DNA from: Marsupella aquatica
Lineage: Eukaryota > Plantae > Marchantiophyta
Assembly (NCBI GenBank): GCA_973895155.1
Contig: OZ316891.1
Coordinates: 21,092,169 to 21,156,168, forward strand
Length of the DNA stretch: 64,000 nucleotides
Direction: 5' to 3'
Below the pieces are notes generated by a model. The model saw only the letters and a program-made list of their open reading frames with translations, was not told the DNA's origin and ran no database searches. The position numbers were made by a program, and so were the translations under genes. The first letter of the stretch is position 1, and each line of letters begins with the position of its first letter. Positions 22,285 to 48,382 of this stretch are shown in pieces.

Positions 22285-25200
22285 CTAGGATTTGTCACTT
22301 GCTATGCATGTCAAGAGATAGTCTCTTGCCTTGACAACAACATTCTTTGGAATTCCTACCAGCCCTGTCACTGGTCCTTTGCGTGCTTTGAAACACCACA
22401 AGGCAGAGGAAACATCTATTGTCTCAGCTTCCTTGTATATTGGAGTTGGATCACGTTCCCATTTCTTATCCCAAGAATCTGCCCACCGCTCTCTTGGCTG
22501 CCAGTCTGATTGACCACGTTGCTTCTTTGCCATAAATGGTCTAAACCACTCAACGCCACATACATGAGTAAGAAGGTTTTGTTCATTCATTGGTCCTTCT
22601 ACCACATCTGTAACAACTAACCCCATATGGACGGCATAAACATCCAGGTCTGAGTCGTCCGGCCGTACCAACACATAACAACCCTTCACAACATCAACCC
22701 TAGGGTTAAAACTCTCAGGAGGTTTATCTTTTGCTGGTCCCACATAATCCACTGTTGCCTCCAACTCACATGCCACATTTTGATATTCTGGTGGAACGTG
22801 CTCTCTCCATATTGATAAAGGCCAAAACCCGTATTCCAAGTTGTGTGCACCTTCAGGTTCATATTGCACCTGCTCACCCTGTAGAGTATCTACAATGTCA
22901 TTCCAATAATTGATGAGTTGTCCAACATCGCTTTGGTTCTTCCTCTTTTGTTCGCTTTAGAATAAACTCAAAGAATGACACATGCTTCTTCAAACCTGTC
23001 AGCACTTCAGGAAGCATTTTCAACTCCATCATTGGTAGCCGTTTGGGCACCCCAATTGGGATGTGAGGACTTTTGTCATCTTTCCATGACCACATTTCAA
23101 TACCTTCCTTAGGTAACCATCCCTGATCAGTTGACTTCATTTTGTATTGGAAGCATGGCATACTATCATGACGAACATAGAACCTAAACAGCCTGGGTTT
23201 TAAATGCCCCACCAATGCCTCAGGGCCCTTCAACATGAATGGAGCTAAGTAGTTTTTGAAATCTAGGACCTCCTGTAGAAAATGTGGGACTGCATTGGGT
23301 GTCCTTGCTCTCATGAACAAGGACATTAACTCAGGCAATGAGTATGTGGGTTATGCATCATAGACTCTGAAAAATGCCCGAACATACCGTCAACATCCTC
23401 ATGAGTATGCCCAACCACCATAAAACCAAGATGAACCTCTTCAAACACCTCCCTTGCCGTCAACAATGACAAATAAGCCATCATATGTCTGTTCTTGTTA
23501 ACTGAGGCACAATTATCCAGTTGTAGCTTCAATACTTGTGGAAGGGGCCTGAACTTTGGTGCCTCAGGTGCTGCATCACAATGTAACAATCTCAGAATGC
23601 TTTTAAATAAAACCCTAGTCAGACCCTAAACCCCAATTTAGGGTTTAGGGTTTAAACCCTATTAATGAAACCTTGGCTAGGAGGAGCAACAACTACACAA
23701 AGTAGAGTGTCAGTGTGTGTGAGCTTATATTATTAAATAATAATAAATTAAAGGATTGTGAGTAAAGTACCTAGGCTTGAGCCCTGGGCCCTTAGTGTTA
23801 CTAATACAGGGAGGACGTGCGAACAACGCAAGGGTATTTTTAATGTAATGCAAACTAATTTTTATAACAGTTTTTAAAGTAGGCAACATCCCTCTATATA
23901 CATTCACCACAATATTAGTAATAAGGCAAGAATCAAATACATGTCACATAAATCTTATGCAAGGGTACCCAAAATGCCAAGTACACGCGTCACTATATGG
24001 TTGACACACATGTCATCACTTCATTTGCACACGTGTCCATATAGTAAATCAGATATTTAATTATTATCATCTTAAGGCAAGTTTGGTTTCGTTGGTCCCC
24101 TTATGGTGGAACAAATGGGTTAAGGTAGACATGTTTACCCGCATGTTTAGGAGTTAAGTGGGGAGTTGAGTAAATTTTGGGCCAGGATCTTTGGGCCCAA
24201 CTTGGTTGGGAAACTGGGATTGATGGGGATCCATGGATTAATCCCACATGGACGGACAAGATTACTTTTGAATTCCCTTGAATCAAACAGCCATGTATGA
24301 GGCCAGATGTGTTTGTGTATTGAGGGAGGGGTCTCGAGCGCTCAAACAATGTTTGTTATAGTTGGTTCAGACTTTGAAGTATTATTCCTGGATTATACAT
24401 ATATAGTACTAATGAAAACTAGAAGTTCAGAGGCACTTTTGCGAACACTAAAACAAAACTGCAGGTCTATGTGTAAACTATAGGAAGAACTATAATTTTC
24501 TCTCGTCCTAATTTTGTTTATCTATATAAAATATGTACCTTGAACATCGAGCATAACATACAAGTCCCCTATGAAAGATAAAGTTTTAACTATTTCAGTA
24601 TGATATTTGTAATTCTAAAAATTCAAGGGTGTTTTCAATTCCTTGAAAAACTCTATTATAATTTATAAAAGGATAAAATTTAATAGGAAAAGTTAATATT
24701 TTTACATTAACAAGGGGATTTTTTTTGTGAACAAAAATATTAAGAAGGGGTACACGGGGGGTATCTGTTCTCAGGGGGGTTCACTTGATATAGTAAGAGT
24801 GAGGGCCCAGGGGGCTTGAGATGTAGGCAATGTCATCCTCAAATGCTCTAAGGACACTTGCCTCCAAGATATCTGCTCTCCCAAAAAGGAGGTCTTTAAA
24901 AAGACTTGTCGAGTCTGGCCCCTCCACAAGTGATTTGATCATTGGATTTGGGTTTTCCAACATCCTTAGTATTGAATCAATTGACCCAATAGTGATGTTG
25001 ACATCACCTGGCCACACTCCAACATGATATTGGGCTATGGCCTTGGGACCATGACCATGAGTAAGGATACCAGTGACAATAATTGGGAACTTTTGGGCAC
25101 CATCCACATGCTTAGGATTGAAGGGCATTCTTGGGAGAGCTATCTTTGAATGATCCATCTTATCATGAATAAGGCATAACACTTCCTTTGGACGATGGAT

Positions 25201-26699
25201 GGACTCATATCTCCAGGTATGATAGCACATTCTTTGTTGTGTGTGGTCTTGGTGATGTTCCTCCTTGTCACGCCTTAGGCCCTCTAACTCTTCCTTAGCT
25301 CCTATAAGGTTTGCTTTCCGTTGAAGCAACTCACTACAAGTTGTACACTTTGAAAAGTTGTTGCCCTTTTTGTGACGTGAGAACTCCCTGAAATACATCT
25401 GATGTAGATGACTCAAGGTGGGTTGGGAAATTGGAGGAAGACCAGCCTCCTGGTTGACAACATTAACCCTGTTTCTAATATTCTCCCAAGTAAGATTTGT
25501 TGGCAATTCCCTCAAAACCATCCTTGTATTATCTGCCATGGTTCTCAACTTGGCTGGATGATGATCAGCTGCCTCCTCAATAATCTCTTTCATTGACATG
25601 AACGCTTGAGATACTTTCTCGGACATACGCCTTTTTCCAGCATTACCATGGGTACCTATGTTCATTCCAGCCATCACAGTCTTCTTCAAGGCATAAAATT
25701 GAGTCTTTCCTCTTGAATGAATGATTCTCCATGCCTCCAAGCACAATACTTTGCCCTCCACTGCTAGAATCCTTTCTCCAGTACCCAAGTGTATTGTATT
25801 TTAATAGCCTTGATTTCCTCCTCCTTGCGCTCCACAAAAGATTTTGACCACCACTTTTGCCTAATTGCCATAGCCAAGTTGCGGTCCAAATATTGGCAAC
25901 AATGTTCACTACAACAGTCCTTAGTGTTTATCAACAACACATCTTGACGTGCCAAAGATGTGTCTCTTCTAGATGTCTGGGAAGATGGACTCTTTCTTTT
26001 TCTACTTTTATGGACGTAGGACCGCAGCTTGCCACTTGTTGGAGATGTGTTCCCTCCCACAGCTTGCCTGATGTTGTGGAAAGACAACAAGTTGCCATCC
26101 TTGGCAATGAGTTGGTCCATCGACCAAGCTTTTAAACAATCTCTATGCTTCAGGTGATCTATGATAGCTCCCTCGACAAAATCGTTGATCAGAATTCCCA
26201 CATGTGTATTCCCAAGGGTGACATCCCCAAGCTTCACTATAGGATCTAGAACATGTATAGTTGCCACTGCAAAAATCAACTTGTTCTCATCCACCACCTT
26301 TACAGGCATGCCCATCCACAAAGCCTTTGGTAAAACTACTTCCACACCAGACCGACTCTCATTATGGTTGTTCCCATCAGAATTTTGATTGACTGGATCT
26401 TGATCATCACCAACAGTGCCAAACACATCCTCCGATTCCATGGGAGCTCGAAAAGGCTGATTCCTTTCCCATACAAGGTAACCCCCAATCATGTCCTGCA
26501 AAAGTTCGCCATCTTTGCATAGAATGGTCTCGTCAAAAACTTCCTCCAATAGAAGAAGAACTTTGTCCGCCCCAAGAGGAACATTGTGACAAACCCTGGA
26601 AGGATCAAGACTTATCACGCGACCTTTTCCAACCTGTTTCTCACGTATGCCTATAATAACTTGTCCGCCTTCCCTGATCCAGACTGTCGATGTCACCAT
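22285..26699 (-). pseudogene. Sola-like (DUF7869-type) DDD transposase, roughly 1050 codons, frameshifted and interrupted by a 1.25-kb insert
   Basis: Motifs FSKCTTC..H, HDKMD, LQLDNCASVNKN and GFMVVGHTHEDVDGMF match the Sola-type catalytic signature. Two En/Spm TnpA-like repeats at the N-terminus. Frameshifts near 25790, 23335 and 22900. Confidence 0.78.
23582..24829. mobile_element. 1248-bp TG...CA insertion (solo-LTR-like) in the transposase
   Basis: Ends TGTAACAATCTCA / TGAGATGTAGGCA. Removing it restores EDDI-CDAAPEAPK in frame. No clean 5-bp TSD; CAATGT repeats overlap both junctions. Confidence 0.6.
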
Positions 26700-26769
26700 A
26701 ATAATTATGATCCTGCACATCAGAGAATATCACTGTAAGCGTACAGTCCTGTCATGTCCGTCAATTTCA

Positions 26770-27412
26770 CTGCACTGTCTTGTCACGTCGGTCAATAAGC
26801 AGAATGTAGTCAATGCACTGCGCTGCACGCGACTGGTCACGTGACCCTAGAGGTACCACACATACCGGCAACAGACTATGCATGGTCCGTCAGTCATTTC
26901 AAATGAATGAGAATGACCACAATCGATTACGATCAATCATTTCACATCCACTCAAAACAAATGAGTGGACAATCAGTAACTACTGAGGACAGTAGTGCTA
27001 ATAAGCGCCAGTAAAACGTCCATGAACTGCATTGTCCTGTCACGACCGTCAATAAGTAGGTAGAATGTAGTCAATGCACTGCCCTGCACGCAACTAGTTG
27101 CGTGACCTTAGTCAGAGGGTGTAGGGATAACAGGGTCTACGACGTAGAAGCTAGAAGGCTAGGCCCAAACTCTAGCTCATACTTGGTACTTCATAAGTAA
27201 GATACGATTGCGCGTGAGACAGGAAGATACAATTACGGATCTAAAGGCATCACACATACCGGTAACAGATTATGCATGGTCCGTCAGTCATTTCAAGTGA
27301 ATGAGAACGACTACAATCGATTACGAACAATCATTTCAACTCCACTCAGAAAAAATGAGTGGATAGTACCAATTTACCAATGAGTGGACACCGGACAGTC
27401 AGTAACTACTGA
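26770..27412. repeat. Duplicated segments upstream of the transposase, each carrying the 16-bp palindrome
   Basis: 26774-26850 resembles 27030-27110, and 26858-26985 resembles 27252-27411. Confidence 0.8.
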
Positions 27413-27729
27413 CCCGAGTCATAAGAAATCTCAGTACTTCACTAGCAATCAATATTCCCGGGGCGGTCGCCAAACGTGAAATTAAAGCCATAATTAGAGG
27501 ACAACTGAACTTCCCGCCAATTCTAATATGTGCTAGTCAAACGCGCACTCTTTTCTAGAAACTACTATGTACAATGACTAGTGGAGACTAAACAGTATAA
27601 AGCATTGAGATGATCCCTATTGCTCATCCCCCACACATTCCACTTTCTTGCTACTGGATAATCTATTTGCACATCAGCTCTCTCATTTCCAATTCTTAGT
27701 CTCGGTCCGCATCTCTTGTTTGAAGGGCG

Positions 27730-28272
27730 ATGACTACTCCGCTGAGCTCGAAGAATGAGGATGTTCCGACGGACGATTCAAAAGGTTCGACGTATCAAAT
27801 TTGTGGTACTCCTTACAGAATGTGTCAGCGATGTAATATAATGTTTACGGTGACTAAATCGGGTCAAATGTTTTGTGAGAGATGACATTGTTCACCACAT
27901 TTGTCGATGCAAGATCAGATGGAGACCAATCCGACAGAGATGACTACAAAGATGGCATCAGGGGAGAAGTTAAAGGGCAAAGCCCTCGTGGAATCCGTTT
28001 CGAGGGGGGAGAAGTTGAAGGCCAGAGCATGCGTCGAATCCATTTCGGGGGAAGCAGCAGCAAACGCTAAGACAGTCAAGAAGGAGGCCAAGAAAGTGGA
28101 CGCACCAAAGAAAAGGCAATTAGAGATGAACAAAGATTCTGATTTGTATTACAGAAAGAGCAAGCTGAGAAAATCTATGGACGTTAGGACTTGGGCAAAG
28201 GAAGAATTTCTGGATTCAAGGGAATCCACACCAGACACCGATGAGTGGATGCCTTCATCTTGGAATGACTGA
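27730..28272 (+). CDS. Small lysine-rich hypothetical protein, divergent from the transposase; probably two exons
   Basis: TATAAA at about 27596, ATG 27730 with a donor-like GT at 27785, and a 123-codon open frame 27901-28272 with a CAG acceptor before METNPTE. No family recognised. Confidence 0.4.
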
Positions 28273-28519
28273 CTCGATCGAAGTCAACAATATTTTGAGT
28301 AGTCGAAGATTAGAACTACAGATTCAAGAGTAGTTCATGTTAGAACTTGTTATAGATACTGTGTAGCTTAATTTCGTCCCGTGGAAAATAGTGTTCGAAA
28401 GACCAGGTCAGTTAAATTCCTGGATAGTGCTAGTGGATATGGATTCCACATCCGAAGTCCTTCGAGATCGATGTAACCATTTTTGCAATCAAGGAAAAAA
28501 CGAGATTCCTCTGACTGAC

Positions 28520-31262
28520 AATTTGCTAGGTTGTCGACTACAATAAACAATATCAAAAAGACTTGAGATAAATTGGTTCACGCGATTGTGCGCGTGATGA
28601 ACTACATGTGTAACCAAAAACAGATCATCCTACTAACAAGTTGAGATCAGGCAGATCTGAGAAATAAAGGGCAATTACGTCTAAGAGTGCAGAGCTTTCG
28701 CTGATCTCTAAAACATTAACGCGACCGGGCGCGTGATGAAACAAAGACGTCGGTTTTAAAATAGATTGCTGGCCAATTCGCTAGGCTATTGACTACAATA
28801 AACAATATCAAAAGACACGAGATAAATTGGTTCACGCGACTGTGCGCTGATGAACTACATGTGTAACCAAAAAAACAGGTCATCCTACTAACAAGTTGAG
28901 ATCAGGAAGATCTGAGAAATAAAGGGCGATTACGTCTAAGAGTGCAGAGCTTTTGCTGACCTCTAAAACATTAACGCGACCGGTCGCATGATGAAACGCA
29001 GAACTTGGTTTTAAAATAGATTGCTGGCCAATTCGCTAGGCTGTCGACTACAATAAACAATATCAAAAGACATGAGATAAATTGGTTCACGCGACTGTGC
29101 GCGTGATGAACTACATGTGTAACCAAAAATGTGGTACGGGAGTACCTGCAATTTTTTTTGGAAACTTGTTTATTATTAGCATATCCCAAGATTTACTTAC
29201 ATTTAGATGCCTCCTGACCAACATTTACTTGTTCTGGACACTTATTGAAATATTTGACGTCTCCAGCTTCCTGATGATTCCTTTGCCCCACCGTCACCAA
29301 GACTCTATGAGGATTTCGATCGACGCTGTGAGCAGCGTCAGCCTCCACACTCGACGCTTCTAGCAGCGTCCCTTGGTTTTACTTAAGACGCTTTTAGCAG
29401 CGTCCACTTCTACTCACGATGCTTCTAGCAGCGTCCGCTCGACACTTAGACTTAGTTTTTGAAGTAGATTACTAGTAGAGTAGTATTTTATCACCTTAGA
29501 AGTACTTATGCTGTACTTCTCCCTTATTTAGTTTTAAACTTGGAAAGGCACGACTGTTCTCACCTTCTCCATTTTTGGATTCCAGCACTTATAAGATAGA
29601 GAAGAATACTCATTTGAAGAGAGAGAAATAGACTTAATACTCTATTCAGGATTGAGTCTTCTGAATAGTTTTCTCCTCCTTCCATTGTAACAAGGCATGC
29701 TGTGAGTGTTTTGTATGGAAGTAAAGCTGTATTGATTGAAGTTGAGATTGAATTCAAGAGATTCCTATGGTGATTGAATTCAGTTGCAGACTTCTGATAC
29801 TTTAATTGAATTCACCGCTAGGCTTACTTGTGGAGTCAAGATTCGCTAGCCAATTCAAGAGTAGTTGTTGATAAATGAGAAGTAAATTCTGATTCTCAGA
29901 GTAGTTAGTACCGTTGCTTTGATTCTGGAATATGGTTTAGAGTTTGACTGAATTGCGTATCGCTGACGTCAAACCATGTTGACGGCATTTTAAACCATAT
30001 CATTCATTTGCAACCAGAAAGCTTATAGTTTATCAGATTGAGAATTCCATTATCATTCAACTTGGTGTTTTGAAGTGTGAGATTGATGAATTATGGGACA
30101 GATTTCATGTCTATACTGACCCCAAATCCTTTCTGAAGGAGTGGCAGTAGCAGCGTGTTGTCTCTAAATTTTTACTCATTTCTTCTTTGATTCATAAACC
30201 AGAAGTTCAGTTACTTCTTGGTATGTTTATTTGATTTTCCGTTGAAAAGTGGAGTCAGCTTAGAGCTCAGCGCTCTAAATCACTCTGAGTGATAAAAGTT
30301 ATACAATTCATTCTAAAATCTGTTCTTAAAGGGATCGAAACTTTGGTTTTAAGTGAGAAGAGTCACTTTTGATACTTAGCACTATACGACAAAAAAAACA
30401 GGTCATCCTACTAACAAGTTGAGATCAGGAAGATCTGAGAAATAAAGGGCGATTACGTCTAAGAGTGCAGAGCTTTCGCTGACCTCTAAAACATTAACGC
30501 GACCGGTCGCATGATGAAACGCAGAACTTGGTTTTAAAATAGATTGCTGGCCAATTTGCTAGGCTGTCGACTACAATAAACAATATCAAAAGACACAAGA
30601 TAAATTGGTTCACGCGACTGTGCGCGTGATGAACTACATGTGTAACCAAAAAATAGGTCATCCTACTAACAAGTTGAGATCAGGAAGATCTGAGAAATAA
30701 AGGGCGATTACGTCTAAGAGTGCAGAGCTTTTATTGACCTCTAAAACATTAACGCGACCGTGCGCGTGATGAAACGAAGACGTTGGTTTTAAAATAGATT
30801 GCTGGCCAATTTGCTAGGCTGTCGACTACAATAAACAATATCAAAAGACACGAGATAAATTGGTTCACGCGACTGTGCACGTGACGAACTACATGTGTAA
30901 CCAAAAAATAGGTCATCCTACTAACAAGTTGAGATCAGGAAGATCTGAGAAATAAAGGGCGATTACGTCTAAGAGTGCAGAGCTTTTGCTGACCTCTAAA
31001 ATATTAACGCGACCGTGCGCGTGATGAAACGAAGACGTTGGTTTTAAAATAGATTGCTGGAGAATTCACTAGGCTGTCGACTACAATAAACAATATCAAA
31101 AGACACAAGATAAATTGGTTCACGCGACTGTGCGCGTGATGAACTACATGTGTAACCAAAAAATCAGGTCATCCTACTAACAAGTTGAGATCAGTCTGAT
31201 CTGAAAAATGGACCTCGATTATGTTTTGTTTTGCTAGGCCGTCGACTACAATAAACAATAGC
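28520..31262. repeat. Tandem array of about 255-bp units (about 6 copies), split by a solo LTR
   Basis: CTAGGCTGTCGACTACAATAAACAATATC recurs at about 28526, 28781, 29036, 30559, 30814, 31069 and 31233. Each unit has two ACGCGAC palindrome variants. Confidence 0.93.
29130..30391. mobile_element. Solo LTR (about 1.26 kb)
   Basis: TGTGGTA...TACGACA inverted termini, inserted into the A-tract of a 255-bp unit with AAAAA on both sides; the array resumes in register. Confidence 0.78.
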
Positions 31263-33964
31263 AAAACGTATGGACAACTATACTTGAACGCCATACAATT
31301 TTAGACTAGAGAATTCATTCGGATCCTCTACTAGTACTTCTGATACATTGCTTCTATATTGGACTTGAAACATGGATTGATCAAAATCGGAGTGAGAAAT
31401 TGGATCATAACTTCATTGACTCAATTCATGCATTGAATGCGTGATTTAAGGCAACTACTCTCCTCATTTATTGCGGAATTAATGCTGATTGATCCTTACA
31501 AGTTATTCAGTTGCGTGTGGTCTCAGTAATGTTGGTGGCAACCCTCCGATGTTGGCGGAAACCCTCCTCCCAGCCAAGCCTCTTCCTTCCAGCGTAGCCT
31601 CCTCGTCCCAGCCAACTAAGCCACCTCCTTCAAACTCCAATTTCCTTGAGTATCATGACCGAATCCCACCACCAGAGAATGACAACTTGTTGATCGTATC
31701 AAGATCAAAATCCTCGACCAGACAGTGATTTCAGAATAGCCGCTCTTTGTTGGTCCGCTAGAATGCTTCGATGAATGAGGCAGACTATGGAGGTTCTAAA
31801 TGTTTGTCGTCTCGCTTCGTCGCAACTCTCCCGCTTGATCGGATGTGCTCTCCCCAAGATTGAAGGTGATACAACAAGAACTGCGCCAGCGTTGCTTGAA
31901 TGAGCTCCGCCTCTAACTGGAATAGTCGAATGATCCAATCTGCTCCACCTCAAATGTGCCTTGGATCAGCCTCCGCTGAGAGCCCACCTAGTATCCTGGT
32001 CAAGAGAAACTGAAAATGAAGAATGATCCGTGAGCAATGAGATCAGTCTATTGACTCCATGGAGGATGTGTTCATCTGGACTCGATTTTGATTTTGAAAA
32101 TTGGTTGAGTCTCCAGTCGTGAGAATCATTGTACAGGATTGATTTTGAATATCGGTTCTCCCCGACCGTGAGAATCGTTTTACATTGTTTAGAGTATGGG
32201 TTTGAATTGGCAAGATAGAGAGTGGAGTACGGATCCGGATCCGACGGTCTCCACTACCAAAATGGAATGATTTTGAAGTTCGCCTCCACTACGTGATGGA
32301 ACGATTGTGAGAAAGTTGTCGTTCGTTCACATTTTGGATTTGAATTGGCAGATATAGTGAAGATACGGATCCGGATCTGGATCCGGGGATCCCCACTAAC
32401 AATCTTTTGTAGTTGCATAATTACCGGTTTAAATTTCAAATTGGCGATCAAATAGAAATCTCCTTTAGTACGGCAAATCAAAAGGAATCCGATAATCTTT
32501 TTTTCACGATTGCATAGTTTGTTCAGTCGATGGTGGAGTGTACGGAGATCATCTGGAACCTTCTTGTCGCTAGGCTATTATTAGGGTTATGCTAAAACAA
32601 TACCCTACTTAGTCCTTCCTTAGTGTCGGCGCCCACAGTCTCGAGTTCACTGTTCATTGTTGTTGTTTCTCGCTCCCTAGACTTTCACGCGTCTGCTCTC
32701 GTCGCTCTCGCTCTCGCTCTCGCTCCTGCCCTGGATTTCATTTTTGTCGTTGTAGCTCATTCGTTGTGGTCAGGTGCTTGTCGGCGCGTTGCAGCTCTTA
32801 GTAGTTGTCGATCATTTCGACCAGGAGCTCGTTGGCGTGTTGCAGCTCGCATTTACAACTCGTATTCACTTCTAGTTTGCTAGTTCGTTGCAGCTAGTTT
32901 TTTGGGAGTGCTTGTCTCAGCTCGTGTCAGCCAATTTTAAGCTCATATTAGCTCGATCAACGTGTTTTAGCAGCTCAAACTACTTTTTGGCAACTTGTTT
33001 CAGCTCCTTCCATTCAGCATTCAGGTTTGTTTTACCTCTTTGAATCTTCAGGTTTAGTGCGCTTTTATTCATGCTTAGTTTGCCTATCCACAGCTTTGAT
33101 TGTACTTCTGAAAGAGTCTTTTTAACTTGACATAATGAGTTCCTTAGCAGTAAGCACATGTTATTCAATTGGTGGCAGCGAAGCTCTATGTATAGAAGTA
33201 TAGAAGCTGTGTTGTTGTTGCTTAGCATATTAATATCTTCAATCTTATATTTACTTTCTGGAATGCCGCAGCAAGGTCTTCAAGTGCTTGGACGTCAATC
33301 TCTCAGACGATTACATCAATTTTTCAGAATTCAGGTGCAATTTCTACATTTTCTGCTAGTGTTGATTGTGGTTTGCTAAAATTTCTCTTGATTGTTAAGC
33401 TGAGTTTTCATAATGCGGTTTGTTTGTAAACTCAAATATGTGTGAATCATACAAACTCACTAATTAAAATACAACCTGAATGGTCTTAAGTAAGTCATTA
33501 CAAACTTGCACGCTGTGAATTTAATCATATAAACTCTCATGTTATGTGAATCTCATTACACTGAATCCTTTAATTGACGAATACAACCAGTAGACTGCTA
33601 AATTGAATCATCTTAGCTGGATCATTCTCTAAACTTCTGATATATAATAGTTTCACAATGACAGAGCTCAAACATCTGAATTATTGTAAAGTTCATGAAT
33701 GAATACAAATGAATGAAATCATGCTTACTCAGATTTCCTTGTCCGTACGGGTCAGTAATCACAGTTGTATCACTATATTATCCTATTGTCCAAAAGTTGT
33801 TTGAGCTATTGACGCGACCAGTCGCATGAAAATATTGTGAGATTCCTTTTAGGACCAGTTAACGCAACCAGTCGCATGTGAGAAGGAAACTGGATAGATT
33901 TACTGAGTGCGTACCATATCCAAATCTCCACAGGGAAGGTTCAGTGGATATAGTTGTTTAGGTT

Positions 33965-34262
33965 CCGTTGACGCGACCAGTCGCATCTGAGGTAGCTCTC
34001 TCATTGACTGGTTCTGTTAGAGGAGGTAAGGTTCCTTTTAGGACCAGTTGACGTGACTAGTCGCGTCTGAGGTAGATCTCTCATTGACTGGTTCTGTTAG
34101 AGGAGGTAAGGTTTCATTTAGAAGCAGTTGACGCGACCAGTCGCGTCTGAGGTAGCTCTCATTGATTGGTTCTATTAGAGGAGGTAAGGTTCTTTTAGGA
34201 TCAGTTGACGCGACCAGTCGTGTTTGAGGTAGCTCTCTCATTGACTGGTTCTATTAGAGGAC
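33965..34262. repeat. About 80-bp tandem repeat (about 4 copies), each with the ACGCGAC-NN-GTCGCGT palindrome
   Basis: Palindromes at 33971, 34051, 34131 and 34208; degenerate copies at 33812, 33862 and 34342. Confidence 0.92.
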
Positions 34263-34398
34263 GAAGCAACATTTATGATTTGTCACGTAGTGACCCGAAA
34301 AAATCACTCTCAAAGAATTGTTTATACATTCTGATTTGTAGATGCGACCAGTCGCATGAAAATAATCTCTGGGATATATCATTTGGCTGAAAAGAGTC

Positions 34399-34950
34399 AT
34401 GGGCGAACCTGGTCTGGAGAGCTTCAGATATCTATGCCCAATATTTGACGTTTTGGACAGAAGCCAAGATGGTCTACTGGCGGGATATTCTGTATTTGTT
34501 GAAACACTACTACCTGGACTTCCAGATTTCATTGTCGCGGAATTGATATGGCCTCGGATCAAGGAGACTTTTAATTCCTTGGCTAATGTAGGAAATTTCT
34601 CAATAAAGGAATTGGATGAGTTTGTAGGACTATCTTCGGTGTGTCGCAGATGGTGCCACCTTGTTGGGAATACCTATCTTCTGGGTGTAATCAAGTTGAT
34701 TTTATTAGATTTGGCTTTCCCACGAAATCCTACTAAACCGATCGGAAATGAGTCTCTCTCATCGACAGTTCAAAGTTTCTTCCAGAAATACCCAAGAATT
34801 AAATTCATGGGGTCAATGTCCAAAGATCTTAGGGAACTCTTCACAAAGACTTACGATGCTCTTCACCCTCTTGAAAAATGGAAATTTACAGTCAGATGCC
34901 ACGAAGTTGGATACCTTGAGGGTGACATCTACACTTTTAAGGAATTCTAG
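34399..34950 (+). CDS. F-box-like protein 1 (183 aa)
   Basis: LLPGLPDFIVAELIWPRI...LSSVCRRWCHLV resembles an F-box with an internal insertion; paralogous to the neighbouring ORFs. Confidence 0.65.
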   Translation: MGEPGLESFRYLCPIFDVLDRSQDGLLAGYSVFVETLLPGLPDFIVAELIWPRIKETFNSLANVGNFSIKELDEFVGLSSVCRRWCHLVGNTYLLGVIKLILLDLAFPRNPTKPIGNESLSSTVQSFFQKYPRIKFMGSMSKDLRELFTKTYDALHPLEKWKFTVRCHEVGYLEGDIYTFKEF

Positions 34951-35015
34951 TTAACTTACGTGACCAAGCGCGTTGTATGTCTTCTAACAATGTTTTGTGA
35001 TATGATAAAAGCAGG

Positions 35016-35582
35016 ATGAGCCGACTTTTGAATGAGGCTCGAGATTTCCTTTCATCTCATGAAAGGAAATAGAAAACAATATGGGATACGCTGGATGAAA
35101 CCTCCTCTAGTCTCATTGGAGGAATACCAGATGTTTTGGTCATTTCAAACATTTGGCCAATACTCTACGAACACTTTATTTCAATTGAAAGATTGCGTGG
35201 ATATTGACACCTCGATAATGATTTGGTTATCGATAGGGTCCAAGACCTTATTCGGCTTGGAGCTTGTAGCAAGAAGTGGAACTTTTTAGTTACAAATACA
35301 AGGTTATGGGCTATCCTCAAACAAGCAAACCGGATTGTCGATGTCGCAAATGAAGCTCTTTACGACATACCCAAAACTGATGAGTTGGAATTTGACTTAG
35401 TTTGTCGAGTTATTCGATAGGATATTTCTATGCTTCCAAAAATATATGTTCTTGGGACTACTACTTCTGACAAAATTGCATTGTTTACAAACAAATATAA
35501 CAATTTAGATGAGGAAGAACGAGATGTCCTAATCGAAAGGTTTGGTAGATTTTCTCAGAATCTTGGTGGTCCCAGTTCTTAA
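35016..35582 (+). pseudogene. F-box-like protein 2, with three in-frame stops
   Basis: One frame from ATG 35016 reads SLIGGIPDVLVISNIWPIL...LGACSKKWNFLVTNTRLWAILK...LDEEER. Closest to 40054-40602. Confidence 0.65.
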
Positions 35583-35616
35583 TGGATAGGTTCTTGTTCT
35601 TAATCTTTTCCATATT

Positions 35617-36177
35617 ATGCTGCAGTCCTTTGACATGAATCGAAAATCTCATCGTCAAATGATGATGGAGCGCATTGCACGTGCAAAGGTTATGAACCGA
35701 AACATGATATGGAGTCAAGCTGAAGACCTGATACCCGATCTTCCGGACAATATTGTTGAGAAATATATTTGGCCATTAGTCAAAGAGTTTTCCCACTGTC
35801 TTGGGAATTTGTCGGATACTGCGATTAAAAATTGGGTCATGGACTTGATCGCCATTCGAACAGTCAGTAAGAAGTGGTGCCACATAGTTACTTATAGTAG
35901 TACTTGGGCGACGGTCACCTTGGTAGCTTACGACTTCATTGATAGACCAGGATATGAATCGCTTCGAAGGCATTTGACTTCACGGAGTGTAGCATTAAGA
36001 TTTACAGAATCCATCAGAACTCTCCGGCCGCTGGACATTCTGGGTGGATTTGAAGGATCTGAACTTGACACGTTTAGGAACCTTTGGTTTTGGTTAGATG
36101 AAGATGAGCGAGAAGATTGGGTCACGATAAATGTTCCTAAAATGCAATTCGGCATGACGCGACCATGCGCGTGTTAG
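35617..36177 (+). CDS. F-box-like protein 3 (about 180-186 aa)
   Basis: LIPDLPDNIVEKYIWPLV...IRTVSKKWCHIV...LRPLDILGGFEGSELDTFRNLWFWLDEDER. Confidence 0.68.
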   Translation: MLQSFDMNRKSHRQMMMERIARAKVMNRNMIWSQAEDLIPDLPDNIVEKYIWPLVKEFSHCLGNLSDTAIKNWVMDLIAIRTVSKKWCHIVTYSSTWATVTLVAYDFIDRPGYESLRRHLTSRSVALRFTESIRTLRPLDILGGFEGSELDTFRNLWFWLDEDEREDWVTINVPKMQFGMTRPCAC

Positions 36178-36222
36178 TATTTTATAATAAATGTTTAACT
36201 TTCAATATTTGTCTGTTTCAGA

Positions 36223-38704
36223 ATGGATCCTATCGGAACCTCAAAGCGAAAAAGAGACTCGTCTAAAGCTACTTCTCGTAAGAAAACCAAGACAAAAATG
36301 ACTCCCGCGGAGACATCCATACTTGCATATCGAGGAAAGTCAATCAGAGAGAGAACAACGGAGACAAAGAGTATCCATCTCTTTGAATCGACTGAGATAT
36401 CCGATTTTGGAATAGTCGTTCGCAATGGGGCTGTCCGTCTTGTGGTGGCAAAAAAATGATAAAGCTACAGTTTTGGAGAGATCACAAATTCTTGGGTGTT
36501 TCTTTGAGAAGAACATGAAAGTTAAAGAGTGTACAGAGGGATTGGTTCAGTTTAGGGTTATCAGCGACGACCAGCAGGAGGATAAAATAAGCATTTGTTT
36601 GGATCGAACGCAATATGTAACCTTCAATCAGCCCAGAATCGATGATCTTCCAGGTGCAAGGCACGCCTTGGAAAAGGTTACTAGTGTGGGATATCCTTCC
36701 GATCTAGAGGGATCAACGGGAGATTTGATTTGTCAATACATTATTGACGTACTTGAGTTCTAGAGAGTTCCTTTCAACCAGGGATTTTGCTTCGGAAAGG
36801 CCCCGCCAGTGAGCAAGGTTGAAGTATACTCGGCGGAGAATCTTCCAAAAGTAATTACCTCAGCGAATGTCGGGGCTCTGTTCGATTCTTTCCTCAAAGA
36901 ATATAGTGTTGTGAATATATTTAACAGCAAGTCATTTTTTGTTGAGACATCACGTTGTCATCTTGCACCGGACCACATCAAGTGCCGAGAGTGGAATCAG
37001 GATTACACAAATAGGCTAAAGAATTCACTCCTCTCTCATTCGGCTATAAAGTTCGAGAAGCGATGCTGCTTTTTAGTCCCTGTGAAGTGAGTTCAGTCAG
37101 AGGCCGACAGAGATCCCGACTACAATGGGGCGCTCTACGATTCATCGCCAAAGGAGGAGGACATTATGACCAGTCATTTCTGGATACTCGGAGGCCAACA
37201 CACAATAATGGCGTACAAATTGCTGAGAGAGGACGACAAAGTTAGCCAAGTTGTACGAGACGCTTGCGGTACTGTAGAAGCTGTAATGTTTTGGGCAATG
37301 CTCAACAACGACAACAATGTTCATTTGATGGGATTATCGAAAGCTCTGAACCACTATCATCAAACATCAATGGAAGAAGGACAGTTTCTCACCATTGTAC
37401 GACAGTGTCGTAATATCTGGAACTCATTTGGGTGGCCTGGATCACATTATCGTCATCCAAATTGGAAGGTATATAAATAACCCTCTTCGATCACATTATC
37501 GTTTAAACTTTTGTCACGCGAACGGTCGCGTCAAGCTTAGAATTATCATGTTTCCATTGTTTTTAGGTATTTATGAGAGCTACAAGTTTTGTTTGCCCAT
37601 GGGCTCAAATGGGGAAGAACGAAATGATGAAATTTGGAGAATTGGCTCCGTTTCTCTTTACAATGGAGGACGAAACATTCAAGAAGTGGATGGAGGTCTA
37701 TGAACTATCAAGGACAGGAGAGCTTGTAATTTACAAAGGAATTTTATAGAGGAACGCCGTCAAAATTGCGGATAATTTCCATGTGCTTATCATCTTCTGA
37801 AGAAGATATTTCATTCTTATCAAGGGTGCTCAGACTAGGTTCTTCGAAAGGCAGTGGAATATATGTTGAGCGGAAGACTGTCTATACTCAAAAACCGAAG
37901 CATCAAAGTGAAATCTGGGAAGGCGAGGAAGTCCTCTGAGGCTCCAGTGTTGTCAACGACCAGCATGAGTTTGGAGCAATTCTGTATAAAGAAGAAGACG
38001 AAAGTTGAGTTTGAGATTTTATTATTGAGTAAACTCAACGGGGATACATCCACCCGGACGGAGCTAAAAAGTCTGACAGATTCAGCGCGGAAATTACGGG
38101 TCCAAGGAATGATTGATCGCTTTAATATCAACAAGATGGTGCTGAAGCAGGAGATGCGTTGAGTGGTTATCTGAAGAAGTGCTTAAATATAAATATTAGT
38201 AATGATAATTTGTTGAAAGAGATCGACCCGATATTCTACAGGTTGGTGGAAGGAATACATAAATCAGTTGATAGTCAAGGAAACCAACTAGTGCGGCCGG
38301 TCGGTGAGAGGCTGAAATTGCGATCCCTGCAAGATATACAAAATGCTGGGTTTGCAGACTGTATCATACGTGAAGACAAGAACCTTGCGAGCTTGATTTA
38401 TTTTGATCCCTCATCAATGGGAGATTTGCGTCCGCCAAATTGCTCATTCTATGAGGGGTTATTTCGTGCTACTAGCGAGATAGGGGCAAAACCACACCAT
38501 GTGGTTATTATTGTAGCCTCTCCCGTTGAGTCTTACTTAATCAAACGGGAATTAGGGAAGTACACACACTATGTTGCTGTCGATAGCCATTATATTCAGA
38601 AGCGGTCGAAGGAGAAGAAGCTTATTGTAACCTACGCTTTTCACAGCTTGGCCTTCAAACACAATTTTGGACCGACCGAGAAGTGTGTCGGAGTTCTCGT
38701 TTAG
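36223..38704 (+). pseudogene. Long degenerate gene: ParB/Srx-like domain followed by a degenerate adenine-methyltransferase-like region
   Basis: Contiguous reading through a frameshift (about 36455) and stops. FWILGGQHT at 37178-37204. GT-AG intron 37469-37566. C-terminal ASLIYFDPSS...FYEGLFRATSEIGAKPHHVVIIV resembles MTase motif IV and the following helix/strand. Confidence 0.55.
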
Positions 38705-39529
38705 CCCGATCCCATTTTTTTTCTAAGGCAATGCAATGACCGATAAAACTGGCAAAAACTCTCCGAAACGCCACTTTCCTCCATTGCATCGCCGGGGAAT
38801 GCAGGGAGCGATACGTGCATCGGGTTTTATATTCCGTCAGTGAAAAAGTCCTTACTGCGAGTAACTTGGTCCGAACCGCGTAATCCAGGAACGACCACGC
38901 ACTAACCGAGGTAAAGGGGAAACTTAACCATGGTTAAGGGGAAATTAACCATGGTTTAGAGCGTCTCCATAAAGAGGAGCAGGCTGCCCATAAAACATTT
39001 GCTTTCGCCAGAGCAAATATCTCCTGACTGAGAGCGAATACCAAACTCCCATCGAGTCTTACATTCCTCCCAAGCGATTCGACTCTTTCCTGTTCAAGTT
39101 CTCCATGTAAGACTAACTAGTCATTTAGTGTAAAATGTCCAGATCCGAGCGGATTGCGATAAATTTATCGCATTCTGCATTCCTCTGTTGCAATCATTTG
39201 ATCCAGTGTTTAGAGAGGTGTTGCCTTCATTCCGATAAATTTATCGGAGTCTTCATTCCTTTCATGGAAAGAGGAGTAATTGAGAATCCGATAAATTTAT
39301 CGGAGTTGTCATTTTTGTGAAAGATTGAATTCAGGGCTTAGGTGTCTGAGGAAGTCATATTTTCAATTTGAATGCGGAGTGCAATAAACTTATCGCATCC
39401 TCCTATGAGAATAATTTTCCTTTGTTTTGTTTGGAGACTCATCTTCATCTCTGATGTCGCAATGTTGCCAGGTTTAGAAGGCACAACGGAAGGTCAATTG
39501 CACTCCGTGGACAACAGGTATTGTGACAA

Positions 39530-39859
39530 ATGGCTGTCTTCCTTGAAAATCGTGTCAAACGTGCACGTCGGTTGTACAAGAGACTCGTGCGACTCAAAGT
39601 TCTCCCCATCGGTATAGGAGCATTGTGGATGGGTGGTACTGATCCTGGAGATAGGCGGAATCCTCTCCGCATTGAATTTTGCAAAATAAATGATGTAGAA
39701 GTTCCAATTTGTTCGAGGTTGATGTTAACGGCGTGTTTACATTCTTTGGAGTTTTCTTGTAACTATTGTTGTCGTCGTCTTGACAACAAGTACCACAAAC
39801 AGACTCACTTATGTTGTAAGATTTGGAACGAAGACCCTTGGGTGAACCTTTCACGATGA
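39530..39859 (+). CDS. Small Cys/His-rich hypothetical protein (109 aa)
   Basis: Open frame with C..C.H....CNYCC......H..HLCC, followed by AATAAA at about 39906; same strand as the cargo ORFs. Confidence 0.35.
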   Translation: MAVFLENRVKRARRLYKRLVRLKVLPIGIGALWMGGTDPGDRRNPLRIEFCKINDVEVPICSRLMLTACLHSLEFSCNYCCRRLDNKYHKQTHLCCKIWNEDPWVNLSR

Positions 39860-40053
39860 GTGTTTTGACCTTTTCATTGAGGCGTGTCTTGTAAGGACAT
39901 ATTTAAATAAACAAGTCCTACCCTTGCGCAGCGAATATAATACGTCACGAGTCCTAATCGTTAAACTGTCGTGCAGGGTTGGTACTGTGGATGTGTTTGG
40001 TTACACCTGGTGATTGAAGGTATTTTTATTGGTGGTTTTGGTAGCTCTGCTTC

Positions 40054-40602
40054 ATGGTTGCATCGGAGAATCTAATCATTGTAAAGATGGGATCCATTTT
40101 AGCCCACGAGCGTAGGAAATATATTCGAGGAAAAGTGCCCGGTGTGGAATGCGAAAGTTTGTTGAATGGACTTCCCGATCAACTCGTTGAATCTCACATT
40201 TGGCCCCTCCTAGCCTTGTCTTGCACACAAGATGAACACCTTGGCCTTGACCTAAAACTTCTACCAAAAGAACGACTGACTCGAATGAGAACAATCATTT
40301 GTCTTGGAGCCACCTCAAAGAAATGGAACCATCTTGTTGTTGGTACACGATTTTGGGCGCTATTGAAATATGCACTCCGTGAGATCAATGACATAAACAA
40401 AATGCTCACAAGCATTCCTAATGCCGACCTTCTCTCAAACATACATATTGCTAGGGTCTTCCAAGAGGAAACTCATTTCCTCCCTCCCATAGATATGCTT
40501 GGGTGCTTTTTGTATGAGCAGTTAGATCAGTTTCGTAGAGTTTGGATAAATCTTGGAGAAAGCGGGAAGCGGACAATTCTTGCATGGCATGGACGAGTCT
40601 GA
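40054..40602 (+). CDS. F-box-like protein 4 (182 aa)
   Basis: LLNGLPDQLVESHIWPLL...LGATSKKWNHLVVGTRFWALLK...LPPIDMLGCFLYEQLDQFRRVW. Confidence 0.68.
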   Translation: MVASENLIIVKMGSILAHERRKYIRGKVPGVECESLLNGLPDQLVESHIWPLLALSCTQDEHLGLDLKLLPKERLTRMRTIICLGATSKKWNHLVVGTRFWALLKYALREINDINKMLTSIPNADLLSNIHIARVFQEETHFLPPIDMLGCFLYEQLDQFRRVWINLGESGKRTILAWHGRV

Positions 40603-40763
40603 GTGGATGAGGCATTGCTGCGAACATCCGATAAATTTATCGCACTCCTCATTCCTCTAGTTGATTTTGGGTGCTCTAAGGTTTGCTCGAGAAGAGCTTG
40701 TAAAGAAACACTTTGAATGTAATTGACTCTGCCTCCCCTGACTTCGGTTTGTGTGGTTCAGAG

Positions 40764-41327
40764 TGTATTTATCTGATGTTGGTATTGCAAAAGTGGTTCC
40801 TTCATATGGAAGTTGCAATTTGAAATTGAAGCGATAAATTTATCTGATGTTGGTATTGCAAAAGTGGTTCCTTTGTATGGAAGTTGCAATTTTGAAATTG
40901 AAGCGATAAATTTATCTGATGTTGGTATTGCGAAAGTGGTTCCTTCATATGGAAGTTGCAATTTGAAATTGAAGCAATAAATTTATCTGATGTTGGTATT
41001 GCCAAAGGGGTTCCTTCATATGGAAGTTGCAATTTGAAATTGAAGCGATAAATTTATCTGATGTTGGTATTGCAAAAGTCGTTCCTTCATATGGAAGTTG
41101 CAATTTTGAAATTGAAGCGATAAATTTATCTGATGTTGGTATTGCAAAAGTGGTTCCTTCATATGGAAGTTGCAATTTTGAAATTGAAGCGATAAATTTA
41201 TCTGATGTTGGTATTGCAAAAGTCGTTCCTTCATATGGAAGTTGCAATTTTGAAATTGAAGCAATAAATTTATCTGATGTTGGTATTGCGAAGAGTTTTC
41301 TTCATATGGATAGGAATTTTGAAATTT
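40764..41327. repeat. Tandem array of 71-72-bp units (about 8 copies) built around GATAAATTTATC
   Basis: GCGATAAATTTATCTGATGTTGGTATTGCAAAAGTGGTTCCTTCATATGGAAGTTGCAATTTGAAATTGAA repeated head to tail with no unique spacers. Confidence 0.95.
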
Positions 41328-41741
41328 AACCGATGAACCGAAGGATCTTAGTATTATCGACTAGTATTTTTGTCGCCCATAGTTTTCGCGATAATTTTAT
41401 CGGACTGTGCATTGCTGTTGAAAGAATGGCATGTTGACTATGGTCACTTGCGGAGGTAACTGGTCAATTGCGGAGGTAACTACAAGGTAAGTTTGACGAA
41501 CCGTGCAGTAATTCTTATCGACTGTGATGTAAAATATTTTTGGTAAATATCCAAAAACTGAGAAAACTAAGATTGGGTCGGAGCTTTTGTGGCTCAAATC
41601 CGGAGTCCGATACAGTTATCGCACTTGGCTCGAAACATGGATATGGATTTATAGATAAGACCTTTCATATATCTTTGGAGAGCGTGAATATGAGGTTGAG
41701 GAGAAAGTTTTTCGGATCTAATTGTTCCTTGATAATATGAA

Positions 41742-42506
41742 TTGTTCCCTAAGGTCCCATCTATAAGTCTACCACTCATTCCTTTGCTATCCGGGCCAAA
41801 GGATGCCACTACTATGTACATAAGGCAAAAAATAGAAGAAAAAGATGAGAGAAGAAAAGATGATCGCTTCGACGCAAAAATTATCAAAATGTGGGAATAA
41901 GGAGAGAGTGCCCCTCACCACTTTATTTATATTGAATCCAAAAGGGCATGGATTACGCCCAAACGCTTGGATGAAAGCCAAGTGACACACATCCAACGTA
42001 GGAATGTGTGCTAGTACTATTGTAATCAAAACAAATTACACATGCAAGTAAAATGACTAATGCATGCACCTAAAATAATTTGTGCATGCATGCACCTTGT
42101 GGCTTGCATATTTGCTCATCTTGCATGCGCATAAAACAACTAATGCATGCGCATAAAATAATTTGTGCATGCACCTTGTGGCTTGCACATTTGCTCACCT
42201 TGCATGCGCATAAAACAACTAATGCATGCAAATAAAATAATTTACATGCATCTAAAACAAGTTGTGCATGCACCTTGTGGCTTGCACATTTGTTCACCTT
42301 GCATGCACATAAAACAAAATCTAATGCATGCAAATAAAACAATTTGTGCATGCATCTTGTGGTTTGCATAGTTGCTTACCTTGCATGCACATAAGTAATA
42401 GTCAAACTATTTAGTTACACCGTAACAAAATATAAGCCTAATCTATATACTTAATAATATACTTAGTGGTAATGATTTTATCATGAATAATTGAATTATC
42501 ATGACA
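41742..42506 (-). repeat. Gypsy 3' LTR (partial), with ATGCAT-rich internal tandem repeats
   Basis: Matches 48949-49715; similarity ends at 41742. Confidence 0.92.
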
Positions 42507-42559
42507 TATCACCCCTACCAAACCTGTGCATCCTCCAGATGCACCACACCTATAGATTG

Positions 42560-45500: not shown

Positions 45501-46104
45501 AGCCTTCAGCGGGTCATCAGAGACGGCGCCCCGCCATCCCGCATTGTTTAACGAGACGCCTTTCGGAAATCCTCATTTCCTTCCTTGGATTCAGGTCCTC
45601 TCAACTCCTTTCGATTCCTCCAATGTCCAGGTTTCACCACAGGAAATTGGATAATCCGCAAATCATCTCGACTCCTCACCTTTGCCATATGAGTACCATC
45701 TGGCAAAACCTTGTATTCCAATCAAGCTTGAGTAATATAGGGCTGCCCTAAAATCAAGTCATAGGGTAAGCTATCATGCACAAAGATGTTAGTTGGCTCA
45801 ATCACATTGCCAACCTTCATTGGAACTCCTGGACATCCTCCCCAAAGTGTATTCTTTGAACGATTGATTGAGTTTACGACCACTGGGTATCACAATCAAC
45901 CATCCATTGCCCAACATCATAGATGCTTCTTGACATTAGATTTACCTCTGATCCAGTATCAATCAATGCTCGGGCTTTGCCCTCCATCCCCACAAGCTCC
46001 ACTTCCACCACTGAGCAAGTTCTTGCCCAAAATGGTTCCAAGATGGACTCCTTGCCATCTCCCAATTCAAGATTCTTCATGGTAGAGGCACACATGACCC
46101 ACAC
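42560..46104 (-). pseudogene. pol: Gypsy pol (protease, RT, RNase H, integrase), fragmented
   Basis: ALIDTGSEVNLM; YSNRWFTIRKKNGKLRFIQD; DLYSGYDQF; PFLDD; EVRRFLGAC; ETDCLPL; HRG...CKTC; DRGE...YNPEGNGKIER. Confidence 0.92.
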
Positions 46105-46239
46105 ACTTTGTGAAGCCTTGAGTACCTCCTCTTGACTGATTTTTGCTACTTATTATGATTTGTCAAACTTTTCTCCCATCAATGATTCCCATCTTCCCAA
46201 GTCCAATAGCTTAGCTTCTGACATCTTTGGTTCAGAAAC

Positions 46240-46400
46240 TACCTCCTTTGAAGACTCTGGCATCTGTGGTCCAGAAACTTCATCATTTGAAAACTCTAGC
46301 ATCTGTGGTCTAGGGATCTTCTCCTTTTAAGACCCTGACATCTGTGGTCCAGGGATCTCCTCTTTTGAAGACCCTAGCATCTGTGGTCCAGGGATCTTCT
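46240..46400. repeat. About 39-bp tandem repeat between gag and protease
   Basis: CATCTGTGGTC(C/T)AG recurs four times (about 46261, 46300, 46339, 46378). Confidence 0.8.
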
Positions 46401-48235: not shown

Positions 48236-48382
48236 GATTGCAATTCTTCCTTCTTGACTAATGATATACTCACAATTTAAGGACTTATAGTTCCAAAATC
48301 ATATCTCTCTCTATCAACCAAAACTTAGACATGCACAAGTTAACTCCAAAATCCAGCGGTTCCCCAGTATGGTCGCCACTTA

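What the first reader, a model, noticed from the sequence alone, without database searches (positions are those of the whole stretch)
36223..38704. TE-borne ParB-like domain fused to a degenerate adenine-methyltransferase-like region
Seen: a long decayed gene with ...CREWNQDYTNRLKNSL...FLVPV...FWILGGQHTIMAYKLL..., later followed by ASLIYFDPSS-helix-KPHHVVIIV. Known: ParB/Srx domains carry a hydrophobic-GxxR/GxH nucleotide-binding loop, and prokaryotic ParB-N6-MTase fusions place a DPPY motif IV downstream. Inference: a eukaryotic relative with DPSS instead of DPPY, possibly a catalytically altered DNA-binding or anti-silencing factor. No SAM-binding motif I is visible before the ORF ends at 38704.
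Basis: inference. Interest (0 to 1): 0.7.

Follow-up and report, generated by a model that had tools for sequence, protein, structure and literature searches.

The report
Broken transposon ParB gene, cut short
This is a broken, cut-off copy of a many-copy plant transposon passenger gene whose front half is predicted to fold like the bacterial DNA-binding protein ParB and whose back half only resembles a likely dead DNA methylase; the protein likely binds a palindrome repeated through the element to keep it from being silenced, a design already proposed for seaweed transposons.

Summary
The motifs are real. The gene (36223-38657, one 98-nt intron) is a pseudogene of a many-copy repeat with liverwort relatives. 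The ParB/Srx fold is supported: the top 8 structural matches are all ParB/Srx (Z up to 8.8). The GxxR arginine is absent (GGQHT). The methyltransferase reading is not shown: four profile tests and a poor model gave nothing significant, and motif IV reads DPSS or DSSS, with no DPPY listed in other copies. The stop at 38704 is not the gene's end. Other copies leave the window's sequence at 38657 and continue in frame; a second element likely starts at 38658. So the missing SAM motif says nothing. A Sola-like transposase lies 9.5 kb upstream on the opposite strand. One palindrome occurs 19 times between the transposase start and the gene's intron, and CpG is retained there (o/e 0.89 against 0.30 in the transposase arm). 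Best reading: a self-recognition, anti-silencing passenger. The design is published for Ectocarpus (Sola1-1_Ec32) and Bostrychia, and this scan noted it many times before on other DNA, in this genome and others.

The parts
36223..37468 (+). Exon 1 of the passenger gene: basic N-terminus, small beta domain, ParB/Srx-fold domain; one frameshift (~36453) and two stops (36761, 37088)
   Evidence: tblastn of relatives P0005, P0024, P0039; indel in other copies
36917..37369 (+). ParB/Srx-fold domain (model residues 168-318); Box I KCR kept, Box II reads GGQHT
   Evidence: AF2 pLDDT 68-96 by blocks of ten over residues 161-310; VIA-align Z 8.8 to PadC, 8.7 to KorB; hhalign
37469..37566 (+). 98-nt GT..AG intron that holds one palindrome copy (37517)
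   Evidence: sequence; spliced relative P0039 aligns across it
37567..38657 (+). Exon 2, cut off: helical linker, then the methyltransferase-like stretch (about 38330-38657) with DPSS at 38405-38416; two stops, two frameshifts
   Evidence: P0022, P0028, P0039 cover 37567-38027; no relative found for 38126-38657
38658..41742 (.). Second element (likely start at 38658) that replaces the gene's 3' part; own palindrome CGATAAATTTATCG x14, one F-box-like ORF (40045-40602), 71-72 bp tandem array; cut on the right by a Gypsy LTR
   Evidence: break in contigs; 14 matches against 0.21 by chance; related arms at 38717-38748 and 38796-38822
26828..37530 (.). 19 copies of the palindrome CGCGACnnGTCGCG (extended TGACGCGACnnGTCGCGTCA), 18 of 19 outside ORFs, many in tandem repeats
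   Evidence: 19 matches against 0.32 by chance, none elsewhere in the window; placement p 2e-4, copies not independent
22898..26729 (-). Broken Sola-like DDE transposase gene (HDKMD, LDN, GHTHEDVD motifs), interrupted at 23591-24780
   Evidence: DUF7869 E 4.6e-4 and 1.4e-3, both under the curated cut-off; motifs; Sola label recalled and taken from earlier notes
34366..36177 (+). Three F-box-like ORFs directly upstream (34366-34950, 35032-35582 broken, 35590-36177), part of the same many-copy block
   Evidence: F-box/F-box-like E 3e-4 to 0.05, under cut-off; continuous cover
26730..41742 (.). CpG-retaining zone (o/e 0.89-0.91) next to a CpG-poor transposase arm (0.30) and Gypsy interior (0.27)
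   Evidence: 0.80 with the palindromes removed

Best explanation
This is a dead, truncated copy of the passenger gene of a large, likely Sola-type DNA transposon in a likely seed-free land plant; its product has a predicted ParB/Srx fold and a likely inactive amino-methyltransferase-like half, and likely binds the element's own palindrome to keep that part of the element free of silencing CG methylation. Shown: gene structure, decay, many copies, the break at 38657, the palindrome array and the CpG step. Predicted: the ParB fold. Inferred: that transposase and gene are one element, that the C-terminal half descends from a beta-class methyltransferase (order IV..VIII, then I, so motif I would lie in the lost part), that the protein binds the palindrome as a dimer, and that binding protects DNA in the way VANC does.
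For: Fold: the 8 best of 48,161 chains are all ParB/Srx (Z 8.8-5.8, next 4.3); Foldseek agrees but no E<=0.001 (best 2.3e-3). Layout matches Sola1-1_Ec32: ParB plus N4/N6 methyltransferase gene on the strand opposite the transposase (PMC12477816, passages). Palindromes beside a ParB-like passenger gene are described in Bostrychia Plavaka elements (10.1101/2025.02.11.637652, passages). Palindrome: 19 against 0.32 expected, only 26828-37517, 18 of 19 non-coding, one in the intron; VANC motifs sit likewise in introns and tandem repeats (PMC5735166, passages). CpG o/e is 0.89 in the motif zone and 0.30 in the transposase arm. No variant towards PY is listed at 38411-38416, and the proline codon reads serine in 28-47% of summed contig depth in three runs. 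By eye the strands and helix after DPSS line up with phage beta-class enzymes.
Against: The methyltransferase kinship failed to reach significance: no Pfam, PHROG or NCBIfam hit; own profiles, 61 and 126 of 1000 shuffles score as well; two-block score, 267 of 3000 shuffles, rank 5 of 78 window ORFs, 6 bits against at least 30 for real enzymes; hhalign probability 0.3%. The Box II arginine that ParB-fold proteins need for NTP binding (10.1101/2025.10.10.680097, passages) is missing in 20 of 20 stored proteins that show the motif, so a CTP clamp is doubtful. The profile match ends before the ParB HTH. No contig links transposase and gene, no terminal repeats were found, and the CpG step could mean that the two arms have different origins. 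Host genes in the window also keep CpG (o/e 0.7-1.0). This copy itself has been methylated: 12 of 23 transitions private to it are at CpG (p 2e-4 to 2e-3).
Confidence: 0.5

Rival explanations
1. The family is an active, atypical amino-methyltransferase that writes 4mC or 6mA at or near its palindromes, as proposed for the Ectocarpus element.
For: Published precedent; eukaryotic amino-methyltransferases with unusual strand-4 motifs exist (PMC4738411, passages); motif I could be intact in the lost part.
Against: Motif IV lacks the aromatic residue and the second proline, and the first proline varies; 13 weaker variant rows were not shown.
Confidence: 0.12
2. The protein is a transposition helper: it binds the palindromes and brings the far-apart ends of a roughly 20-kb element together, with no role in silencing.
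For: ParB-fold proteins bind inverted repeats and bridge DNA (established knowledge); such passengers are reported on giant elements.
Against: The palindromes are internal and none lies in the transposase-side 5 kb; the CpG step follows the motif zone.
Confidence: 0.18
3. The C-terminal half is not methyltransferase-derived; the gene is a ParB-fold protein fused to another alpha/beta domain, and DPSS is chance.
For: All statistical tests were negative or marginal; ParB passengers carry other domains in Bostrychia (2OG oxygenase).
Against: The motif-IV block alone is matched by 60 of 3000 shuffles and the second block by 140 of 3000; hhalign's best local hit puts LIYFDPS on LIxTDPP; predicted strand-helix-strand order fits (low confidence).
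Confidence: 0.15
4. The ParB block and the transposase belong to separate nested elements, and the block is a non-autonomous passenger unit or a piece of another kind of element.
For: Sharp CpG step at about 26.7 kb; several insertions lie between them; no bridging contig was examined left of 33500.
Against: The palindrome starts about 100 bp from the transposase's first ORF and recurs into the gene's intron; orientation matches Sola1-1_Ec32.
Confidence: 0.15

Closest known systems
Sola1-1_Ec32 accessory gene of Ectocarpus (PMC12477816; passages and three supplement rows seen, figure and sequence files not seen)
   Same: Large Sola-type element, ParB-like domain followed by an amino-methyltransferase-like region, gene on the strand opposite the transposase, proposed self-binding.
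   Different: Here a land plant; motif IV is DPSS/DSSS; F-box-like passengers; the palindrome is defined; copy broken and cut. Sequences were not compared.
Bostrychia Plavaka PAG2/PAG3 (10.1101/2025.02.11.637652; passages seen, supplements closed)
   Same: Giant DNA transposon with a ParB-like passenger next to arrays of inverted repeats.
   Different: EnSpm-type transposase; ParB is fused to a 2OG oxygenase and the methylase is a separate gene.
Phage ParB + N6_N4_Mtase fusions (10.1101/2025.10.10.680097, passages; examples)
   Same: Domain order, if the C-terminal reading holds.
   Different: They keep GxxR, DPPY and FxGxG; the plant protein has long extra segments, an intron and no significant sequence match to them.
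VANDAL/VANC anti-silencing of Arabidopsis (PMC5735166; passages seen)
   Same: Passenger gene plus a family-specific motif amplified in tandem repeats, introns and intergenic DNA.
   Different: VANC motifs are 8-9-bp non-palindromic words on MULEs; no kinship of the proteins is indicated. A 'works like' comparison only.
ParB/Noc/KorB, SerK, SbnI, sulfiredoxin (PDB matches)
   Same: Fold and Box I arginine.
   Different: No Box II arginine; no parA partner; HTH not shown.

Membership tests
ParB/Srx superfamily | ParB/Srx fold | tested here: met
   Z 8.8 (rmsd 2.8, 96 aligned) PadC, 8.7 (2.8, 95) KorB; top 8 rows all ParB/Srx, next row 4.3. Z is only just above the tool's caution level of 8.
ParB/Srx superfamily | Box I arginine | tested here: met
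   KCR aligns with QPR of 67 viral-contig ParB proteins; P0039 has KCQ.
ParB CTPase clamps | Box II GxxR arginine | tested here: not met
   GGQHT/DGQHS/GGMHT/DGQYS in 20 of 40 stored proteins that show the motif (near duplicates included; the rest are fragments or unrelated), none with R.
ParB CTPase clamps | HTH domain after the NTPase fold | tested here: inconclusive
   hhalign match stops at column 166 of 285, at the first HTH helix; only 4 sequences cover the region.
ParB CTPase clamps | CTP binding and sliding on DNA | not testable with these tools
   needs biochemistry
Beta-class N4/N6 DNA methyltransferases (PF01555) | Motif IV (D/N/S)PP(Y/F/W) | tested here: not met
   DPSS in the window; 38408 C>T gives DSSS in part of the other copies; no listed change at 38411-38416.
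Beta-class N4/N6 DNA methyltransferases (PF01555) | SAM-binding motif I downstream of motif IV | tested here: inconclusive
   Gene is cut at 38657; the continuation is not in the window and only about 30 letters of it were shown.
Beta-class N4/N6 DNA methyltransferases (PF01555) | Profile match | tested here: not met
   single, partial query
Beta-class N4/N6 DNA methyltransferases (PF01555) | Rossmann methyltransferase fold | tested here: inconclusive
   single-sequence model, pLDDT 39; best Z 3.9, no methyltransferase listed
Sola DNA transposons | Sola-type DDE transposase | tested here: inconclusive
   DUF7869 below cut-off; three acidic motifs present; no Sola reference sequence compared, label recalled
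Sola DNA transposons | Terminal inverted repeats and 4-bp target duplication | tested here: inconclusive
   none found; right arm replaced at 38658
Sola DNA transposons | Many dispersed copies | tested here: met
VANC anti-silencing proteins | Sequence kinship to VANC | not tested
   no direct comparison; Pfam gave no family for P0001 or P0039

The most novel reading that the evidence does not exclude
Land-plant transposons use a prokaryote-derived ParB-fold reader that has lost both the NTP arginine and the methylase motif as a family-specific anti-silencing factor, an independent invention of the VANC strategy; its long-term footprint is the CpG step at the first palindrome, and each family has its own palindrome, as the switch at 38658 shows.
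Probability: 0.3. Interest if true: 0.7.

Novelty: new member of a known kind. Interest (0 to 1): 0.4.

Why it matters
How transposons escape DNA methylation is known in detail for one plant system (VANC). A ParB-based equivalent has only been proposed, for algae. This locus names a candidate target site and a measurable footprint (CpG retention) in a land plant, so binding and methylome tests become simple. This particular copy is dead and truncated and is a poor starting point; intact family members are the ones to study.

Tried and rejected
No genome held. Protein searches for the C-terminal half found nothing, nor did a search for long relatives of the ParB half (995-2840 aa only); all weak evidence. 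Atlas: no usable hit for the C-terminal half. Sequence search of solved structures: nothing relevant. Phage tblastn: only E 3-10 noise. Viral contigs: no relative. Metagenome scan: one locus, L001, is the antisense strand of a bacterial response regulator and was dropped. P0010 was left out of all alignments as a repeat-driven false hit, as were P0017, P0018, P0022 and P0024 from A1. hhalign of the plant ParB alignment against full phage ParB-methylase fusions gave nothing. I first read the frame after 38704 as a degenerate motif I (PGxxxxDxxxG at about 38790); rejected, because that DNA belongs to the second element. No RNA holder was listed, which is no evidence on expression. Runs X5 and X6 have small shares and were not used for claims. 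A homodimer prediction was not obtained, so dimerisation is untested. The founding Sola paper is not held and Iyer 2011 was seen only as a citation. Not-in-print searches: sola+transposon+liverwort+DNA methyltransferase, 0 papers; ParB-like+transposable element+bryophyte, 0; ParB-like+DNA transposons+eukaryot+inverted repeat+accessory, 2 papers, neither on land plants by listing. The library lacks most subscription journals and Repbase.

Full report
Observation. Reading 36416-37477 with X at its two stops and searching 1.84 billion representatives gave 28 hits at E<=0.001, the best 38% identical over 333 residues; one, P0010, is a repeat-driven false hit. Four relatives in three clusters are named Calypogeia fissa proteins; the rest are unnamed. 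Together with introns and Gypsy/Copia neighbours, this points to a seed-free land plant (inference). tblastn of relatives maps the gene from the ATG at 36223 across a 98-nt intron (37469-37566) to about 38027. It carries four stops and three frame breaks, and contigs of other copies show indels at those three places.

The gene does not end at 38704. Laying four runs on 38330-38960 shows a break at 38657/38658. In three runs the contigs that cover DPSS stop at 38657 and go on with one agreeing sequence (agreement 0.89-1.0) that stays open in frame for the 30 letters shown. Contigs that match from 38658 (or 38694) have long upstream letters that disagree among themselves (0.46-0.57), as expected at the end of a mobile element with many insertion sites (inference). 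The continuation is not in the window. The sequence itself changes signature at the same point: palindrome A occurs only at 26828-37517 (19 against 0.32 by chance) and palindrome B only at 39157-41608 (14 against 0.21), with B-like arms already at 38717 and 38796. Both patterns were chosen from this window, so the chance figures are generous, and tandem copies are not independent. The right end of the second element is cut by a Gypsy LTR near 41742 with no target duplication seen.

ParB half. Pfam and PHROGs give only hints (ParBc_2 E 0.11; phrog_1033 E 0.056). AlphaFold with 25 sequences modelled residues 161-310 at pLDDT 68-96 by blocks of ten. Against 48,161 chains the best eight are all ParB/Srx: PadC Z 8.8, KorB 8.7, SerK 7.9, Atu1540 7.2, sulfiredoxin 6.8; the next row is 4.3. 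Foldseek ranks ParB, Noc and Srx first but with no E<=0.001. A profile of 15 plant sequences aligns with 67 viral-contig ParB proteins over 110 columns at E 0.023 (probability 2%), against E 0.23 over 6 columns for a methylase control. Box I KCR pairs with QPR, and GGQHT pairs with AGERR. None of the 20 of 40 stored proteins that show this motif has the arginine, which a ParB survey mutates to abolish NTP binding (10.1101/2025.10.10.680097, passages). The Atlas returns unnamed eukaryotic clusters (0.95) and a ParB_N cluster (0.91; family on 35% of members). So the fold is supported and a CTP clamp is doubtful.

Methyltransferase half. No relative was found. I built profiles from 48 distinct phage beta-class enzymes (of 67 loci; 53 had motif I after motif IV). 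HMM scores were matched by 61 and 126 of 1000 shuffles. A two-block score was matched by 267 of 3000 shuffles and ranked 5 of 78 window ORFs; single blocks by 60 and 140 of 3000. hhalign placed LIYFDPS on LIxTDPP at 0.3% probability. The single-sequence model is unusable (pLDDT 39). By eye the order after DPSS (helix, KP plus hydrophobic strand, helix, two strands) follows the beta-class N-half, in which motif I comes later, in the part that is lost here; this is inference. In other copies no change towards PY is listed, and 38408 C>T turns the proline to serine in 28-47% of summed depth (13 weaker rows not shown; depth is not copy number).

Element. The block 33.5-41.8 kb is many-copy in two runs (2705 and 3583 contigs laid). 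A broken DUF7869 transposase with HDKMD, LDN and GHTHEDVD motifs lies on the - strand at 22898-26729; calling it Sola-like rests on recall and earlier notes. Palindrome A begins about 100 bp from its first ORF and recurs through tandem arrays into the ParB gene's intron; 18 of 19 copies are outside ORFs that cover 45% of the span. CpG o/e is 0.30 at 21435-26729, 0.89 at 26730-38657 (0.80 without the sites), 0.91 in the second element and 0.27 in the Gypsy interior. Host genes in the window also reach 0.7-1.0, so retention may reflect origin rather than protection. Of 24 A>G or T>C rows I used 23 (one mixed row dropped); 12 are at CpG, against 18-23% expected, so this copy has itself been methylated. 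The link between transposase and gene was not tested with reads, and no terminal repeats were found.

Mechanism. Most likely the intact element makes a ParB-fold protein that binds palindrome A and keeps the surrounding DNA, including both promoters, low in CG methylation, with the methylase-like half acting as a non-catalytic module (0.5). Rivals are end-pairing help (0.18), a non-methylase C-terminal domain (0.15), separate elements (0.15) and an active atypical methylase (0.12); these are not all exclusive. Binding, dimerisation and any effect on methylation are untested.

Comparison. The 21.5-kb Ectocarpus Sola1-1_Ec32 carries an opposite-strand 1104-aa ParB plus N4/N6 methyltransferase gene, with self-modification proposed (PMC12477816, passages, supplement rows; its sequence files were not seen, so its motifs are unknown to me). 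Bostrychia Plavaka elements have a ParB-like gene next to inverted-repeat arrays (supplements closed). VANC gives the functional model. My searches found no land-plant report. The scan's own notes list 112 findings on Sola, ParB and palindromes in at least 6 genomes, several in this genome; they gave me the paper leads and the prompt to look for palindromes and are not counted as support.

Verdict. A real, decayed and truncated member of a known kind of transposon passenger. ParB fold supported, methyltransferase origin plausible but unproven, catalysis unlikely. What this locus adds is the defined palindrome, its switch at the junction and the CpG step. Interest 0.4.

Noticed in passing
window 38658-41742: A second many-copy element with its own 14-bp palindrome and an F-box-like ORF; starts AACAC, and the same five letters at about 21437 may mark the left end of the first element (untested).
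   Followed up: partly
window 41742-49715: Gypsy LTR retrotransposon on the - strand, LTRs 97.7% alike, several stops, no target duplication seen, so probably a recombined or deleted junction.
   Followed up: partly
window 29130-30388: Solo-LTR-like insert (TG..CA, A-runs on both sides) that splits the 255-bp palindrome-bearing tandem array.
   Followed up: no
window 31260-33780: Non-coding stretch with a primer-binding-site-like word on the - strand near 32250; possibly a further nested retroelement remnant.
   Followed up: no
window 3432-10004 and 50444-60090: Segmental duplication about 47-50 kb apart, with a 2OG-Fe(II) oxygenase gene (third partial copy at 13930-14510) and a Cir_N-domain gene.
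   Followed up: no
window 22285-22956 (-) and 27886-28272 (+): Two further ORFs (223 and 128 aa) with no useful Pfam match beside the transposase; the first overlaps its end and may be its C-terminal part.
   Followed up: no
window 36158-36222: A palindrome copy lies in the last codons of the upstream F-box-like ORF, and an acceptor-like TTTCAG precedes the ATG at 36223; the F-box exon might be spliced to the ParB gene. No RNA to test.
   Followed up: no
window 36431-36660: The N-terminal beta domain of the gene gives weak PH/PTB-like matches (Z about 4, low confidence).
   Followed up: no
window 14716-15738 (-): Copia-type gag remnant with a zinc knuckle, between 78-bp inverted arms at 14516 and 17115.
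   Followed up: no
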